Origin: a virus
Virus record (IMG/VR): IMGVR_UViG_3300030098_002339
Location: 24,285-88,284 of that record
Direction: 5' to 3' (one strand)
Length of the DNA: 64,000 bases
The position numbers and the translations under genes were made by a program. Below the pieces are notes generated by a model. The model was not told the DNA's origin, did no database searches, and saw nothing but the letters and a program-made list of their open reading frames with translations. Positions within the stretch are counted from its first letter, which is position 1, and every line of letters starts with the position of its first letter. Positions 17,497 through 63,891 of the stretch are shown here, one piece after another.

Positions 17497-18489
17497 ATGG
17501 CAGAAAGTACTAATGTACAAGGTGCTGCTGATAAGATCAAAGGACTTCTGAATCCTGAACAAGGACAATCAGAACCTAAGAAAAAAGCAGAACCATCAGA
17601 GCAACCTGAAAAGATCAAACAGGAATCTTCAAAAGAGAGTCAATCAAAGTCTGAAGAAACTCCAAAAGAAGAAGCATCTGAAAATACTGAGATCAAAGAA
17701 GAAACGCAAACAGCAACAGAGGAACCAGAACTCCACCGAGTCAAAGTACAAGGTCAAGAGTTAGAGGTTAGCCTCGATGAACTGAAAGCAGGTTATTCTA
17801 GAGACTCGGATTATAGACAAAAAACTCATTCTTTAGGCTTAGAGAAAAAAGATCTTGAAGCTCAAAAGAGTAGTTTGCGTCAAAATTATGACAATCGTTT
17901 AAGTGAACTTAACGACTTGATTGCAACTGCTGATGGTTTCATCAGACAACAACAAGGTAGTAAAGATCTTAAAAAACTTTGGGAAGAAGATCCCACGTCT
18001 GCAGCACGACTGGATTACCAGTTAAGAGAACAAAACAGGCAGATAGATGATATGAAATCCAAAGCAAAAGACGCTTATCAAAAACAATATGATGAGTACC
18101 TTGATACACAGAGACAGTTAGCAGCAGCGAGAATACCAGAATACAGCGATCCTAATAAAGCTGATCAATTTAGAACTGATATGAGAACCTCTTTGAGGTC
18201 TTATGGTTTTAGTGAGCAGGAAATTGGGAATCTGGCTGATCATCGTTTTTTAATGGTGATTAGAGATGCTATGAGTTATAAATCTGTTAAAGATAGAAAA
18301 CCTATAGTCCAGAAGAAGGTAGCTAACGCACCTAAAGTTGTTAAAGCTGGTGTCGCTAAACCAAGTACAGGCACAGGACGAGACGCCATAAGAAACAAAA
18401 TTGGCAAGTTAGCAAAAACTGGTCATATTAAAGATGCCCAGTCTGCAATACTTGACATGATTAATCTTAAATCTCAACAAAAAAGGTAA
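17497..18489 (+). CDS. Capsid scaffolding protein
   Basis: Acidic N-terminus, VKVQGQELEVSLDEL...YSRDSDYRQKT. Confidence 0.88.
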   Translation: MAESTNVQGAADKIKGLLNPEQGQSEPKKKAEPSEQPEKIKQESSKESQSKSEETPKEEASENTEIKEETQTATEEPELHRVKVQGQELEVSLDELKAGYSRDSDYRQKTHSLGLEKKDLEAQKSSLRQNYDNRLSELNDLIATADGFIRQQQGSKDLKKLWEEDPTSAARLDYQLREQNRQIDDMKSKAKDAYQKQYDEYLDTQRQLAAARIPEYSDPNKADQFRTDMRTSLRSYGFSEQEIGNLADHRFLMVIRDAMSYKSVKDRKPIVQKKVANAPKVVKAGVAKPSTGTGRDAIRNKIGKLAKTGHIKDAQSAILDMINLKSQQKR

Positions 18490-18495
18490 AACACA

Positions 18496-19437
18496 ATGGC
18501 ACAACCAACAAATACGTTTGATACGTATGACAGTATTGGTGAAAGAGAAGACCTGTCGGATGTTATTTATAACATCTCGCCAACTGACACTCCATTCTTA
18601 AGCTCAGCTGCTAAAGTAAAAGCAACTGCAGTTTTACACGAATGGCAAACTGACAGCTTGGCTGCAGCTTCTACATCAAACGCTGTAATCGAAGGTGACG
18701 AAGCCACTTTGGATTCTACTTCTGCAACAACTAGATTATCTAACTCTTGTCAAATTATGGACAAAACAGTTGTAATCACAGGTACGCAAGAAGCAGTTAA
18801 CAAAGCTGGTAGAGCATCTGAGATCGCTTATCAAGTAGCTAAAAGAGCTAAAGAGCTTAAAAGAGACTTGGAAGCAATGTTAACAACAAACAACGCTGAA
18901 GTAACAGGTAACGCTACAACAGCAAGAGAAATGGGTTCATTAAGAGCATGGGTTGCTACTAATGACGTAATGGGAACTTCTGGAACATCTGGAGCAGCAG
19001 GTAATACTGCAGCAACTGATGGAACTCAAAGAGTTTTCACAGAATCTCTCTTGAAATCTGTAATTAAATCAGTATGGGAGCAAGGTGGAAATCCAACTAT
19101 GGTTATGGTTGGTCCTTTCAACAAGCAAAAATTATCAGGATTTACTGGTAATAGTACTAGATTCGATGCAGGTGCTGATGCAACTTTGTATACATCAGTT
19201 GATGTTTACGCTTCTGACTTTGGTCAGCTTCAAGTAGTACCTAACAGATTCTCTAGAGATAGAGATGCTTGGGTATTAGACATGGATTACTGGGGAGTAG
19301 CTTTCTTAAGAGACTTTCAAATGCATGATCTTTCAAAAACTGGAGACACAGAGAAAAAACAACTTCTTTTAGAAGCAACTCTGGAATCTAGAAACGAAGC
19401 TGCAAGTGGCTGCGTAGCAGACTTGACAACATCGTAA
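18496..19437 (+). CDS. Major capsid protein (DUF5309-type HK97 fold)
   Basis: REDLSDVIYNISPTDTPF...HEWQTD; follows scaffold. Confidence 0.92.
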   Translation: MAQPTNTFDTYDSIGEREDLSDVIYNISPTDTPFLSSAAKVKATAVLHEWQTDSLAAASTSNAVIEGDEATLDSTSATTRLSNSCQIMDKTVVITGTQEAVNKAGRASEIAYQVAKRAKELKRDLEAMLTTNNAEVTGNATTAREMGSLRAWVATNDVMGTSGTSGAAGNTAATDGTQRVFTESLLKSVIKSVWEQGGNPTMVMVGPFNKQKLSGFTGNSTRFDAGADATLYTSVDVYASDFGQLQVVPNRFSRDRDAWVLDMDYWGVAFLRDFQMHDLSKTGDTEKKQLLLEATLESRNEAASGCVADLTTS

Positions 19438-19448
19438 TAACTAAATAA

Positions 19449-19531
19449 CTGTTTGGGCGAGTAACCTTAAATCTGCTCGCCCAGCAGATTCTAACAATGA
19501 AGTCTTGAGAGAAGGTTAAAGGCGGAACATT
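19449..19531 (+). ncRNA. Kissing-loop/pseudoknot cis element downstream of MCP
   Basis: Two stems with complementary loops AACCTT/AAGGTT; compensatory changes at 63401-63486. Confidence 0.65.
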
Positions 19532-19545
19532 AAAGGAATATAAAC

Positions 19546-19893
19546 ATGAGAACATTAAACGACTATTTTTTACATGCAGCAATCGCAGATATTAGTACAG
19601 CATCATCAACATTCGTGCCTGTACCTGATGGAGGCAAAGTAATAAAAATTATAACTGCTCTTCAAGGAGCAATTGGAACAGCTAATGGCGGAATTTCTTT
19701 CGAAATTGGTGGTACAGCAATAACTGGTGGCGGGATTACAGTAACACAATCTGGATCTGCTGCTGGGGATGTTGATACAGCAGAACCAACTGCAGCTAAT
19801 GACGTTGCTGAAGATGGAACTATTGAAATGATAACTGACGGAGCTTCTAGCAACGCAGTTAAACTTAATGTAACATTCGTTATAAGAAGATAA
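19546..19893 (+). CDS. Capsid decoration/cement protein candidate
   Basis: Gly/Ala/Thr beta-rich; nearly identical to 63497. Confidence 0.7.
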   Translation: MRTLNDYFLHAAIADISTASSTFVPVPDGGKVIKIITALQGAIGTANGGISFEIGGTAITGGGITVTQSGSAAGDVDTAEPTAANDVAEDGTIEMITDGASSNAVKLNVTFVIRR

Positions 19894-19957
19894 TTTAAAT
19901 CGGTAAATGTTCCTGGAACGTTCTGGGAACATTACCAAAACATAAGGAGAACAAAAT

Positions 19958-62447: not shown

Positions 62448-63389
62448 ATGGCACAACCAACAAATACGTTTGATACGTATGATTCCATTGGAGAACGTGA
62501 AGATCTGTCAGATGTTATTTATAACATCTCGCCAACTGACACACCATTCCTTAGCTCTGCAGCTAAAACAAAAGCTACAGCAGTTTTACACGAATGGCAA
62601 ACTGACAGTTTGGCATCAGCTTCAACATCCAATGCTGTAATCGAAGGTGACGAAGCAACTTTAGACGCTGTTACTGCAACAACTAGATTATCTAACTCTT
62701 GTCAAATTATGGACAAAACAGTTGTAATCACAGGTACGCAGGAAGTAGTTGATAAAGCTGGAAGAGCTTCTGAACTAGCTTACCAAATCGCTAAAAAGTC
62801 AAAAGAGCTTAAAAGAGACTTGGAAGCACAACTAACAACAAACAACGCTGAAGTAACAGGTAATGCTACAACAGCAAGAGAAATGGGTTCATTAAGAGCA
62901 TGGGTTGCTACTAATGACGTAATGGGAACTTCTGGAACTTCAGGAGCAGCAGGTAATACTGCAGCAACTGATGGAACTCAAAGAGCTTTCACAGAATCTC
63001 TCTTGAAATCTGTAATTAAATCAGTATGGAACGAAGGTGGAAACCCAACTATGATTATGGTTGGACCTTTCAATAAACAAAAATTGTCAGGATTCACTGG
63101 TAACAGTACTAGATTCGATGCAGGTGCTGATGCAACCTTATACACATCAGTAGATGTTTACGCTTCTGACTTCGGTCAACTTCAAGTAGTACCTAACAGA
63201 TTCTCTAGAGATAGAGATGCTTGGGTATTAGACATGGATTATTGGGGAGTAGCTTTCTTAAGAGACTTTTCAATGCATGAATTGTCAAAAACTGGAGACT
63301 CAGAGAAAAGACAACTAATTCTAGAAGCGACTCTAGAATCTAGAAATGAAGCTGCAAGCGGCTGCGTAGCTGACTTAACAACTTCATAA
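62448..63389 (+). CDS. Major capsid protein (unit C)
   Basis: Homologue of 18496, same length. Confidence 0.92.
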   Translation: MAQPTNTFDTYDSIGEREDLSDVIYNISPTDTPFLSSAAKTKATAVLHEWQTDSLASASTSNAVIEGDEATLDAVTATTRLSNSCQIMDKTVVITGTQEVVDKAGRASELAYQIAKKSKELKRDLEAQLTTNNAEVTGNATTAREMGSLRAWVATNDVMGTSGTSGAAGNTAATDGTQRAFTESLLKSVIKSVWNEGGNPTMIMVGPFNKQKLSGFTGNSTRFDAGADATLYTSVDVYASDFGQLQVVPNRFSRDRDAWVLDMDYWGVAFLRDFSMHELSKTGDSEKRQLILEATLESRNEAASGCVADLTTS

Positions 63390-63400
63390 TAATATAACAA

Positions 63401-63486
63401 ATGCGTAGGCGGGTAACCTCAAATTCTACCCGCCTTGCATCCTAATTAACATTGAAGTCTTGAGAGGGGTTAAAGGCGGAACAATG
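63401..63486 (+). ncRNA. Kissing-loop element downstream of MCP (unit C)
   Basis: Covarying homologue of 19449-19531. Confidence 0.65.
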
Positions 63487-63496
63487 AGGAAACAAA

Positions 63497-63844
63497 ATGA
63501 GAACATTAAACGACTACTTTTTACACGCAGCAATCGCAGACATTAGTACAGCATCATCAACATTCGTGCCTGTACCTGATGGAGGCAAAGTAATAAAAAT
63601 TATAACTGCTCTTCAAGGAGCAATTGGTACAGCTAATGGCGGAATTTCTTTTGAAATTGGTGGAACAGCAATAACTGGTGGCGGGATTACAGTAACACAA
63701 TCTGGATCTGCTGCTGGAGATGTTGATACAGCAGAACCAACTGCAGCTAACGAAGTTGCTGAAGATGGAACTATTGAAATGATAACTGACGGAGCTTCTA
63801 GCAACACAGTTAAACTCAACGTAACATTTGTTATAAGAAGATAA
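63497..63844 (+). CDS. Capsid decoration protein candidate (unit C)
   Basis: Two aa differences from 19546. Confidence 0.7.
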   Translation: MRTLNDYFLHAAIADISTASSTFVPVPDGGKVIKIITALQGAIGTANGGISFEIGGTAITGGGITVTQSGSAAGDVDTAEPTAANEVAEDGTIEMITDGASSNTVKLNVTFVIRR

Positions 63845-63891
63845 TTAATTCAGGGGATGGAAACATCCCCTAAACAAAAGGAGAACAAAAT

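What the first reader, a model, noticed from the sequence alone, without database searches (positions are those of the whole stretch)
19449..19545. Covarying kissing-loop RNA between major capsid and decoration genes
Seen in both units (also 63401-63496). Stem 1 GGCGAGTA/TGCTCGCC becomes GGCGGGTA/TACCCGCC. The outer stem 2 AATG/CATT becomes CATTG/CAATG. The inner GTCTT/AAGGC with its AA/GGAA internal loop is invariant. Loop AACCTT pairs with AAGGTT in B and AACCTC with GGGGTT in C. There is no U-tract, so it is not an ordinary terminator, and it ends right at the downstream RBS. Inference: a tertiary element setting capsid:decoration stoichiometry, protecting the mRNA end, or acting as a small assembly RNA.
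Basis: partly seen in the sequence, partly recalled or inferred. Interest (0 to 1): 0.7.

Follow-up and report, generated by a model that had tools for sequence, protein, structure and literature searches.

The report
Kissing-loop RNA after pelagiphage capsid gene
A conserved, folded stretch of messenger RNA sits between the major capsid gene and a small capsid-cement-like gene in a very abundant group of ocean phages, and its two hairpin loops pair with each other; its job is still untested but is probably to balance how much of the two proteins is made.

Summary
The window is a tandem of two diverged genomes of HTVC106P-like pelagiphages. The spacer lies between an SU10-type major capsid gene and a 115-aa jelly-roll gene that resembles phage cement proteins.

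More than 130 distinct homologous spacers fall into two classes.
- Class I (117 sequences) has P1a/P1, P2 and P3 with heavy covariation.
- Its loop-loop helix ACCU:AGGU is paired in all 117 at three positions.
- Compensatory changes are C-G to U-A on at least three backgrounds (50 of 50 in an exhaustive metagenome scan) and A-U to G-C once.
- One uncompensated change (3 sequences) and a variable fifth pair count against strictness.
- Class II (HTVC106P itself) lacks both kissing loops but keeps P2, the AA/GGAA internal loop and P3.

The element is not in Rfam. It is not a canonical terminator, although distant relatives have one at this position. RNA-library contigs bridge it.

Best reading: a cis-acting intercistronic mRNA element that tunes capsid and cement expression. 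This function is inferred, not shown.

The parts
18496..19437 (+). Major capsid protein gene (SU10 type), unit B; stop TAA at 19435-19437 followed by a second TAA
   Evidence: Pfam PF17236 SU10_MCP E 1.4e-101; PHROG major head protein
19449..19487 (+). Hairpin 1, unit B. P1a is CTGTT 19449-19453 with AGCAG 19483-19487. P1 is GGGCGAGTA 19455-19463 with TGCTCGCCC 19474-19482. Loop L1 is ACCTTAAATC 19464-19473.
   Evidence: MFE fold. On 101 sequences P1 is 100% paired with 6 of 9 pairs changed on both sides; P1a is 91% paired with 5 of 5.
19464..19468 (+). L1 kissing nucleotides ACCTT, unit B. They pair with AAGGT at 19512-19516.
   Evidence: Pairs at A3 columns 32-35 with 93-96 are 100% paired in 101 sequences; C-G to U-A in 14, A-U to G-C in 1. 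Native L1-L2 duplexes are more stable than shuffled partners, 0 of 2000.
19488..19495 (+). Single-stranded A/U-rich linker ATTCTAAC between the hairpins. ATTCT can pair weakly with the SD region GGAAT.
   Evidence: MFE. Linker-SD duplex energy is only slightly better than shuffled: -1.48 vs -1.30 kcal/mol, 4 of 2000.
19496..19531 (+). Hairpin 2, unit B. P2 is AATG 19496-19499 with CATT 19528-19531. The internal loop is AA 19500-19501 opposite GGAA 19524-19527. P3 is GTCTT 19502-19506 with AAGGC 19519-19523. Loop L2 is GAGAGAAGGTTA 19507-19518.
   Evidence: P2 is 95% paired with 3 of 5 pairs changed on both sides; P3 is 96.6% paired with 5 of 5. TGAAG...CGGAAC occurs only at these two sites in the window, 0.2 expected.
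19533..19548 (+). Shine-Dalgarno AAGGAA (19533-19538) and start codon ATG (19546-19548) of the 115-aa gene
   Evidence: Read from the sequence; the ORF is listed
19546..19893 (+). 115-aa jelly-roll protein gene, putative capsid cement/decoration protein, unit B
   Evidence: No Pfam or PHROG family. AF2 pLDDT 93.2. VIA-align Z 9.8 to KHP30 capsid chain 7dn2_1, 8.7 to BPP-1 3j4u_H, 8.7 to KHP40 cement 7dou_4.
62448..63389 (+). Major capsid protein gene, unit C
   Evidence: ORF list; about 86% DNA identity to unit B over this module
63401..63440 (+). Hairpin 1, unit C. P1a is ATGCG 63401-63405 with TGCAT 63436-63440. P1 is AGGCGGGTA 63407-63415 with TACCCGCCT 63427-63435. L1 is ACCTCAAATTC 63416-63426, with kissing nucleotides ACCTC at 63416-63420.
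63450..63486 (+). Hairpin 2, unit C. P2 is CATTG 63450-63454 with CAATG 63482-63486. The internal loop is AA 63455-63456 opposite GGAA 63478-63481. P3 is GTCTT 63457-63461 with AAGGC 63473-63477. L2 is GAGAGGGGTTA 63462-63472, with kissing nucleotides GGGGT at 63466-63470.
63497..63844 (+). 115-aa jelly-roll protein gene, unit C
   Evidence: N-terminus MRTLNDYF as in all homologues

Best explanation
The element is a cis-acting structured segment of the late mRNA. It fills the ~105-117-nt spacer between the major capsid gene and the next gene, a jelly-roll, cement-like protein, in HTVC106P-like pelagiphages.

Shown:
- It has two adjacent hairpins.
- Hairpin 1 (P1a+P1, G+C-rich) starts 7-11 nt after the capsid stop codon.
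- Hairpin 2 (P2, a near-invariant AA/GGAA internal loop, then P3) ends at the Shine-Dalgarno sequence of the next gene.
- In class I, loop 1 (UAACCU...) and loop 2 (...AGGUUA) co-evolve as a 4-8-bp helix.

Inferred:
- Hairpin 1 is the descendant, or the positional equivalent, of the intrinsic terminator that follows the capsid gene in distant relatives. It has lost its U-tract, so transcription runs on into the added cement gene, while the hairpin still shields the capsid message from 3' to 5' decay.
- Hairpin 2 organises the ribosome-binding site of the cement gene.
- The loop-loop contact locks the two hairpins side by side into one compact fold. This stabilises the AU-rich hairpin 2 and brings the capsid stop codon close to the next start.
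- The net effect would be to fix the relative output of two proteins that are needed in similar, very large numbers.
For: Structure:
- Covariation on 101 CM-aligned class I sequences: 97% of cells paired, 21 of 28 pairs changed on both sides, 0 of 500 shuffles as high, and slid controls 40-46% paired.
- The same architecture appears in 30 class II sequences, with P1 covarying at 6 of 10 pairs. All 16 distinct class II P3 hairpins have complementary ends.

Strand: G-U pairs are frequent (for example U-G in 59 of 101 at one P1 pair), and only the + strand folds well.

Kissing contact:
- Tally over 117 sequences: A-U 116 and G-C 1; C-G 103 and U-A 14; C-G 117; U-A 77, U-G 36, C.A 3, gap 1.
- The U-A variant arose at least twice on a capsid tree.
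- An exhaustive metagenome scan for loop-2 G99 variants gave 52 hits, all GAUUA. Of these, 50 of 50 with loop 1 present carry UAAUCU, on three or more loop backgrounds. One shows a fifth-pair A-U to U-A swap.
- Native L1-L2 duplexes average -4.86 kcal/mol against -4.02 for shuffled partners, 0 of 2000.
- Both kissing loops are absent together in class II.

Context:
- One copy per genome unit.
- Among 15 distant capsid relatives whose spacer I read, 14 carry a hairpin followed by a T-run right after the capsid gene and lack the 115-aa gene. They are MW202481 and 13 genome-contig loci. The fifteenth, L388, has the 115-aa gene and a hairpin without a T-run. Four other loci showed no clear terminator or were cut, and L374-L376 are class II copies.
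- Only 15 of 101 class I and 4 of 30 class II hairpins are followed by 5 or more T in 8 nt.
- RNA-library contigs from 4 runs in 2 studies run from the capsid gene through the element into the next gene.
- The downstream protein resembles cement proteins.
Against: - No experiment or raw-read end mapping supports any function. The contigs cannot show ends or levels and could include DNA carry-over.
- Class II phages do without the kissing contact, so it is not essential to the core function.
- The fifth kissing pair is unpaired in 30 of 102 sequences.
- Three related sequences (L579, L591, L592) carry an uncompensated U to C change at the fourth pair.
- The strict invariance of UGAAG...CGGAAC, and in class II of about 30 nt around it, is not explained by a simple stabiliser or spacer role. 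It fits a specific binding partner better.
- SD sequestration by the linker is weak.
- A plain hairpin without a U-tract also follows the 115-aa gene, so such hairpins may be this group's ordinary gene punctuation.
Confidence: 0.55

Rival explanations
1. Hairpin 2 is a translational operator. A phage protein (for example free cement protein, capsid protein or scaffold) or a host RNA-binding protein recognises the invariant AA/GGAA internal loop next to the Shine-Dalgarno sequence and represses or activates the 115-aa gene. The kissing loop only pre-organises the site.
For: UGAAG...CGGAAC is invariant or nearly so in both classes, while the flanking helices covary freely. Class II keeps this core while losing the loops. 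The site abuts the SD. There is a single site per genome. Autogenous control through an RNA structure upstream of the gene is known for T4 gp32 (passage in PMC10690425).
Against: No candidate binder was identified. The 115-aa protein is an all-beta jelly roll with no nucleic-acid-binding family hit. The internal loop did not fit a kink-turn when I checked the sequence by hand against the consensus as I recall it. Invariance could also reflect an RNA-RNA tertiary contact.
Confidence: 0.2
2. This is ordinary punctuation. Hairpin 1 is a non-canonical terminator or 3' stabiliser and hairpin 2 an unrelated local structure. The loop complementarity is a by-product with no functional tertiary contact.
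For: Distant relatives have plain terminators at this position. A U-tract-less hairpin also follows the next gene and is non-homologous between units B and C. 15 of 101 class I members do have a T-rich tail. Class II lacks the contact.
Against: Loop 1 UAACCU and loop 2 GGUUA are conserved while their stems change. There are compensatory double changes at two kissing pairs with no half-changed intermediates. Native loop pairs beat shuffled partners. The two loops are lost together in class II.
Confidence: 0.1
3. The element is a processed, stable small RNA that acts in trans.
For: The invariant loop letters AACC/GGUU are the same as the interlocking loops 5'aacc/3'uugg of phi29 pRNA (PMC3753930, Fig. 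1 legend). Covariation cannot tell intra- from intermolecular pairing. The element lies within the head-gene block.
Against: There is no Rfam match of any kind, even at E up to 10. There is no three-way junction and no 5'/3' closing helix. The phage encodes a terminase large subunit. RNA-library contigs continue into both flanking genes. No promoter-like site lies within about 1 kb upstream of the element on the + strand; the nearest is at 18401-18429. Class II relatives lack the loops.
Confidence: 0.05
4. The element is a ligand-sensing riboswitch: two hairpins whose loop-loop docking depends on a metabolite and controls the adjacent ribosome-binding site.
For: The fold is compact with a tertiary contact and a conserved internal loop directly upstream of an SD. 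As recalled, it resembles loop-loop riboswitches in architecture (purine, guanidine-II).
Against: No Rfam riboswitch matched. The regulated gene is a structural protein. Class II lacks the docking loops. The SD is not clearly sequestered in either state.
Confidence: 0.03

Closest known systems
Intrinsic terminators and 3'-end stabiliser hairpins placed after phage major capsid genes
   Same: A G+C-rich hairpin begins 7-11 nt after the capsid stop codon. Among 15 capsid relatives at 44-63% identity whose spacer I read, 14 have a canonical hairpin plus T-run at the same position; the fifteenth, L388, has a hairpin without a T-run.
   Different: 86 of 101 class I and 26 of 30 class II members lack a T-tract, and the tool's terminator scan does not flag the hairpin. 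The loop is 10-16 nt and sequence-conserved. A second conserved hairpin follows, and the loops pair. RNA-library contigs read through.
Mu-gpT-DE RNA motif
   Same: It is a conserved RNA structure immediately downstream of a phage major head gene. This description of the motif is recalled, not read here.
   Different: No match to any Rfam 15 model at gathering score or at E up to 10. The capsid here is SU10 type, not Mu gpT.
phi29 pRNA interlocking loops
   Same: The two loops carry 5'-AACC and GGUU-3', the same letters as pRNA's interlocking loops (PMC3753930, Fig. 1 legend). Both belong to podovirus head or packaging gene contexts.
   Different: There is no Rfam pRNA match, no three-way junction and no terminal helix. 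The element is embedded in an mRNA spacer rather than being its own gene. Packaging here uses a terminase large subunit. A four-letter identity is easily chance.
Loop-loop (kissing) tertiary contacts between neighbouring hairpins of cis-regulatory RNAs, such as purine riboswitch L2-L3 and guanidine-II (recalled)
   Same: Two adjacent hairpins of similar height, with Watson-Crick pairing between their loops, next to a ribosome-binding site.
   Different: There is no sequence or model similarity, no evidence of a ligand, the gene is structural, and the contact is dispensable in class II.
Bulk catalogue of candidate structured RNAs from IMG/VR (PMC10690425)
   Same: It draws on the same data source and the same kind of object: 8,495 unnamed candidates from IMG/VR, several upstream of capsid genes (passages read).
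   Different: I could not establish whether this motif is among them. The alignment archives could not be opened, and the table I read carries no sequences or coordinates.

Membership tests
Rfam families, including Mu-gpT-DE, phage pRNA, pistol and other ribozymes, and riboswitches | Match to the family covariance model | tested here: not met
   0 matches at gathering score over the whole window. 0 matches at E up to 10 over 19400-19600 with permissive filters.
Intrinsic (Rho-independent) terminator | G+C-rich hairpin directly after the gene | tested here: met
   P1 is 9 bp, 100% paired in 101 sequences, and mostly G-C.
Intrinsic (Rho-independent) terminator | U-tract immediately 3' of the hairpin | tested here: not met
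   5 or more T in an 8-nt window within 0-2 nt of the stem in only 15 of 101 class I and 4 of 30 class II sequences. Not flagged by the scan.
Intrinsic (Rho-independent) terminator | Transcripts end at the site | tested here: inconclusive
   RNA-library contigs of 4 runs in 2 studies bridge the site, but contigs cannot show ends or levels, and DNA may be present in the libraries.
RNA kissing-loop / pseudoknot tertiary contact | Loop-loop complementarity maintained by compensatory changes across homologues | tested here: met
   Three of four core pairs are paired in 117 of 117 sequences. There are double changes at two pairs. 50 of 50 metagenome variants are compensated. One uncompensated event covers 3 sequences at the fourth pair.
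RNA kissing-loop / pseudoknot tertiary contact | The contact forms within one molecule, shown physically | not testable with these tools
   This needs chemical probing, native gels or a structure.
phi29-type pRNA | Three-way junction with a 5'/3' terminal helix, and a phi29-type packaging system | tested here: not met
   The consensus structure is two independent hairpins. The phage encodes a TerL with Terminase_6N/6C.
Capsid cement/decoration protein (for the 115-aa gene) | Jelly-roll fold like known cement proteins, with the gene next to the capsid gene | tested here: inconclusive
   pLDDT 93. Z 9.8 to 7dn2_1 (rmsd 3.2, 109 aligned), 8.7 to 3j4u_H, 8.7 to 7dou_4, 8.4 to 7eel_H. Unrelated jelly rolls score Z 8-9 as well. 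Presence on the virion is untested.

The most novel reading that the evidence does not exclude
The L1-L2 pairing may be intermolecular rather than intramolecular. It would use the same AACC/GGUU loop letters as phi29 pRNA. That would give these very abundant ocean podoviruses an RNA scaffold that co-localises synthesis or assembly of capsid and cement proteins: a pRNA-like principle outside the phi29 family and inside an mRNA.
Probability: 0.05. Interest if true: 0.9.

Novelty: new variant of a known kind. Interest (0 to 1): 0.55.

Why it matters
[quoted passage not shown] Almost nothing is known about how they control gene expression.

This element is a well-supported structured RNA that is not in Rfam. 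It has a covarying loop-loop contact and an unexplained invariant internal loop, and it sits exactly where capsid and cement-protein output must be balanced.

It also offers a natural comparison. Class I has the tertiary contact, class II lacks it, and more distant relatives have a plain terminator. That series could show how a terminator is remodelled when a new gene is inserted behind a highly expressed one. One cultured member (HTVC106P on Pelagibacter HTCC7211) makes the question testable.

Tried and rejected
- **L1 as an anti-SD.** Loop 1 pairing with the downstream Shine-Dalgarno sequence was rejected. Native pairs are no better than shuffled ones (-2.54 vs -2.46 kcal/mol, 136 of 2000), and the loop-2 G to A changes are explained only by L1-L2 pairing.
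- **SD sequestration by the linker (P2a).** MFE folds pair part of the SD with the linker in 65 of 101 sequences. The energies are tiny and barely above shuffled, so this remains a weak possibility only.
- **Kink-turn.** I checked by hand whether the AA/GGAA loop fits the kink-turn consensus as I recall it. It does not.
- **GNRA tetraloop-receptor contact in class II.** By my own reading of A4, 17 of 30 class II loop-1 sequences are GNRA. This is not universal, so I left it as speculation.
- **Antisense small ORF.** It is present over copy B but broken in copy C.
- **Extra copies or a regulon.** None found. The weak model hit at 63013-63084 (20.7 bits) lies inside the capsid gene of unit C only and is probably chance.
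- The scan for loop-1 A37 variants used too loose a pattern.
- The scan used the wrong IUPAC letter (D for H) and simply re-sampled class I. I used its 118 loci as extra sequences.
- The corrected scan found 0 loop-2 G98 variants in viral contigs among elements that match the rest of the pattern exactly.
- **Published csRNA catalogue.** The alignment archives could not be opened and the tables hold no sequences.
- **Earlier findings of this scan.** These were closed to the session.
- **RNA depth.** Depth differences between the capsid gene and downstream contigs cannot be used as expression levels.
- **L388.** Model R1 did not match the L388 prophage spacer at E up to 0.01.

Full report
**What the window is.** The window is bases 24285-88284 of an 88,284-bp IMG/VR virus record. 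The feature recurs at a spacing of 43,952 bp, so the record holds 2.009 genome units. The two units are only 68-86% identical at the DNA level, so they are two diverged genomes laid head to tail. In each unit the order is terminase large subunit, SU10-type portal, scaffold, SU10-type major capsid protein (PF17236, E 1.4e-101), a ~110-nt spacer, a 115-aa ORF with no Pfam or PHROG family, then adaptor and other virion genes. The nearest cultured phage is Pelagibacter phage HTVC106P. That record has the same gene order and a 104-nt spacer.

**The observation.**
- The spacer folds into two hairpins on the + strand with z-scores of -3.4 (B) and -3.1 (C). The reverse complement folds no better than shuffles, at -0.6 and -1.2.
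- Between B and C, stem 1 has one A-U to G-C double change and one U-G to U-A change. The outer stem 2 differs as described. The inner stem and the AA/GGAA loop are identical. The loops can pair as ACCUU:AAGGU (B) and ACCUC:GGGGU (C).
- A 64-aa minus-strand ORF over copy B is broken in copy C.

**Homologues.** Capsid-protein queries recovered several hundred related loci: 592 of 598 candidates confirmed, with similar numbers, and the best 80 kept each time. A motif scan added more. In every locus where both genes were present, the spacer lay between the capsid gene and an MRTLNDYF... gene. By then I had 128 distinct spacers, 102 of class I and 26 of class II, and later calls added more.
- Class I, which includes both window copies, has a 10-16-nt loop 1 beginning UAACCU and a 9-12-nt loop 2 ending AGGUUA.
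- Class II, which includes HTVC106P, has a 4-7-nt loop 1. By my reading, 17 of 30 are GNRA. It has a short P3 with a 3-6-nt loop and no ACCU/AGGU.
- Both classes share P2, the AA/GGAA internal loop and a P3 closed by G-C. UGAAG...CGGAAC is invariant or nearly so.

**Nested helices.** I built covariance model R1 from the MAFFT alignment A2 and realigned 101 class I sequences (A3). Four near-duplicates were left out because of the source limit and added later. On A3, 97.0% of cells are standard pairs against 81.8% in shuffles, with 0 of 500 shuffles reaching that value. In all, 21 of 28 pairs have changes on both sides, and partners slid by 1-3 columns give 40-46% paired. By helix:

| Helix | Cells paired | Pairs changed on both sides |
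|---|---|---|
| P1 | 100% | 6 of 9 |
| P1a | 91% | 5 of 5 |
| P2 | 95% | 3 of 5 |
| P3 | 96.6% | 5 of 5 |

A3 was fitted to these helices, which favours them somewhat. The unfitted MAFFT alignment A2 gives the same picture at 94.9% paired. In class II, P1 covaries at 6 of 10 pairs. P2 and its extension are invariant, so they say nothing either way. All 16 distinct class II P3 sequences have complementary ends, although they are thermodynamically marginal alone. Frequent G-U pairs and the strand asymmetry of folding show that the structure belongs to the sense RNA.

**The loop-loop contact.** The model carried no pseudoknot, so counts on this contact are not biased by the fitting. On A3 the four core pairs are 100% paired, and 0 of 500 shuffles reach the observed covariation. 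Sixteen further class I sequences were added. The tally over 117 sequences is:

| Pair (A2 columns) | Counts |
|---|---|
| A37-U100 | A-U 116, G-C 1 (L301) |
| C38-G99 | C-G 103, U-A 14 |
| C39-G98 | C-G 117 |
| U40-A/G97 | U-A 77, U-G 36, C.A 3, gap 1 |

- *Independent origins.* On a capsid tree, L220 (U-A) nests with the canonical L217 and L221, and that group is sister to the 13-member U-A clade. So at least two origins are needed. L220 differs from its neighbours by the two point changes only.
- *Two exhaustive scans as tests.* No loop-2 G98 variant exists in viral contigs among elements matching the rest of the pattern. In metagenome contigs, all 52 G99 variants read GAUUA. All 50 that include loop 1 carry UAAUCU, on at least three backgrounds (L236 type, L220 type, and a new ACCUC-like type reading AAUCUC:GGGAUU). 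One shows a fifth-pair A-U to U-A swap.
- *Partner specificity.* Native L1-L2 duplexes are more stable than loop 1 with other sequences' loop 2: -4.86 vs -4.02 kcal/mol, sd 0.12, 0 of 2000.
- *Evidence against strictness.* The fifth pair fails in 30 of 102 sequences. L579, L591 and L592 (one event) have an uncompensated U40 to C. L117 combines an ACCUC loop 1 with a UAGGU loop 2. Class II has no contact at all.

**Other pairings.** Loop 1 also resembles an anti-SD, but L1-SD duplexes are no better than shuffled (136 of 2000). Linker-SD pairing is weak (-1.48 vs -1.30 kcal/mol, 4 of 2000).

**Context.**
- The element occurs once per unit.
- Hairpin 1 is not a canonical terminator. Only 15 of 101 class I and 4 of 30 class II members have 5 or more T in the 8 nt after the stem, and the scan tool does not flag it.
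- Of the 15 capsid relatives at 44-63% identity whose spacer I read, 14 carry a textbook hairpin followed by a T-run directly after the capsid gene and have no 115-aa gene. These are freshwater phage MW202481 and 13 genome-contig loci, mostly alphaproteobacterial MAG contigs. The fifteenth, L388, has the 115-aa gene and a hairpin without a T-run. Four other loci showed no clear terminator or were cut.
- The 115-aa gene was found in only 1 of 50,697 GenBank phage records, HTVC106P.
- A further U-tract-less hairpin follows the 115-aa gene and is non-homologous between units B and C.
- Contigs assembled from metatranscriptome libraries of 4 runs in 2 studies run from the capsid gene through the whole element into the next gene. 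They cannot show ends or levels and may include DNA.

**The downstream protein.** It folds with high confidence (pLDDT 93.2, pTM 0.85) as an eight-stranded jelly roll. The best VIA-align matches include the KHP30 capsid chain 7dn2_1 (Z 9.8, rmsd 3.2, 109 aligned), the BPP-1 jelly-roll chain 3j4u_H (8.7), the KHP40 trimeric cement protein 7dou_4 (8.7) and Pam1 7eel_H (8.4). Carbohydrate-binding modules and plant-virus coats score Z 8-9 too (Foldseek). A cement or decoration role is therefore plausible from fold plus position, but it is not shown.

**How it most likely works.**
- *Shown:* a conserved, sense-strand, two-hairpin mRNA structure, with a co-evolving loop-loop helix in class I and an invariant internal loop in both classes, placed exactly between a stop codon and the next ribosome-binding site.
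- *Inferred:* when the cement-like gene came to lie behind the capsid gene, the post-capsid terminator lost its U-tract. Both abundant proteins are then made from one message, while the G+C-rich hairpin still protects the capsid segment. Hairpin 2 shapes the initiation region of the new gene. The loop-loop contact packs the two hairpins, which are of similar height (about 14 and 12-15 layers), side by side. This stabilises the AU-rich hairpin 2 and brings stop and start close together. I give this family of cis mechanisms about 0.55.
- *Main rival:* the invariance of the internal loop is the main fact this reading leaves unexplained. That keeps a protein-operator reading alive at 0.2.

**Comparison and novelty.**
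- No Rfam 15 family matches, at gathering score or at E up to 10. The element is therefore not a member of Mu-gpT-DE, pRNA, any ribozyme or any riboswitch family.
- The loop letters AACC/GGUU equal those of the phi29 pRNA interlocking loops (PMC3753930, Fig. 1 legend), but nothing else of pRNA is present.
- The HTVC106P description (bioRxiv 10.1101/2019.12.14.876532, passages) does not contain the word 'terminator', and the passages I read do not mention any RNA element.
- Full-text searches for 'HTVC106P' (3 papers), 'Mu-gpT-DE' (2 papers) and 'structured RNA / major capsid / phage / intergenic / covariation' (35 papers, 20 listed) turned up no description of this motif. In the 2017 survey of 224 motifs (PMC5737381), 'capsid', 'gpT' and 'Pelagibacter' do not occur in the main text.
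- A bulk catalogue of 8,495 unnamed IMG/VR candidates (PMC10690425) may contain it. Its alignment files could not be read here.
- I rate it a new variant of a known kind: a new structured intercistronic RNA family with an unusual, well-supported kissing contact and an unknown function.

Noticed in passing
whole window; record G000:C1:1-88284: The record is 2.009 units of a ~43,952-bp genome. The two tandem units are only 68-86% identical (85.6% over the head module). Both record ends fall near the same point, just after the RNA element. This looks like an assembly walking twice round a strain-mixed circular or permuted genome, or a heterologous concatemer, rather than one phage genome.
   Followed up: partly
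window 19902-19936 and 63852-63871; L003 2701-2731: A second strong hairpin without a U-tract follows the 115-aa gene (z -3.4 and -3.9). It is non-homologous between units B and C; C has a GAAA tetraloop. U-tract-less hairpins may be this phage group's usual gene punctuation.
   Followed up: partly
L373 2728-2800; L377, L379, L380, L382, L383, L385-L387, L389-L391, L393, L395 (downstream of the capsid gene): Distant SU10-type capsid relatives carry canonical hairpin-plus-T-run terminators directly after the capsid gene and lack the 115-aa gene. They are a freshwater phage and contigs of alphaproteobacterial and other MAGs and genomes.
   Followed up: yes
L388 about 2445-2525: A Rhodobacterales MAG contig has an MRTLNDYM homologue of the 115-aa gene behind the capsid gene. 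Its spacer is different and shorter: a hairpin, then GUGAAGGAAC just before the start. Model R1 does not match it. It may be an intermediate or independent form.
   Followed up: partly
L189 and L619 (same kind of contig): The 5' arm of hairpin 1 and everything upstream are replaced by unrelated coding-like sequence. The breakpoint lies at the start of loop 1. This is either a recombination junction or a chimeric contig.
   Followed up: no
L579, L591, L592: Loop 1 reads UAACCCUU instead of UAACCUUU, while loop 2 stays AAGGUUA. This is the only uncompensated change seen in the four core kissing pairs.
   Followed up: yes
class II spacers, for example L003 2285-2330: In class II about 30 nt around hairpin 2 (GUUUGGUCUUUGAAG ... 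CGGAACGAAGCAAA) are invariant across phages whose capsid proteins are only ~57-60% identical. That is far more conserved than the flanking genes, and it is unexplained.
   Followed up: partly
window 63013-63084: A weak hit of model R1 (20.7 bits) lies inside the capsid gene of unit C only. It is probably chance.
   Followed up: partly
L374, L375, L376: Class II copies of the capsid-element-115-aa module occur on contigs filed under a Rickettsiales MAG, a Marinamargulisbacteria single-cell genome and an alphaproteobacterial single-cell genome. These are probably phage contigs binned with cells, or infected cells.
   Followed up: no
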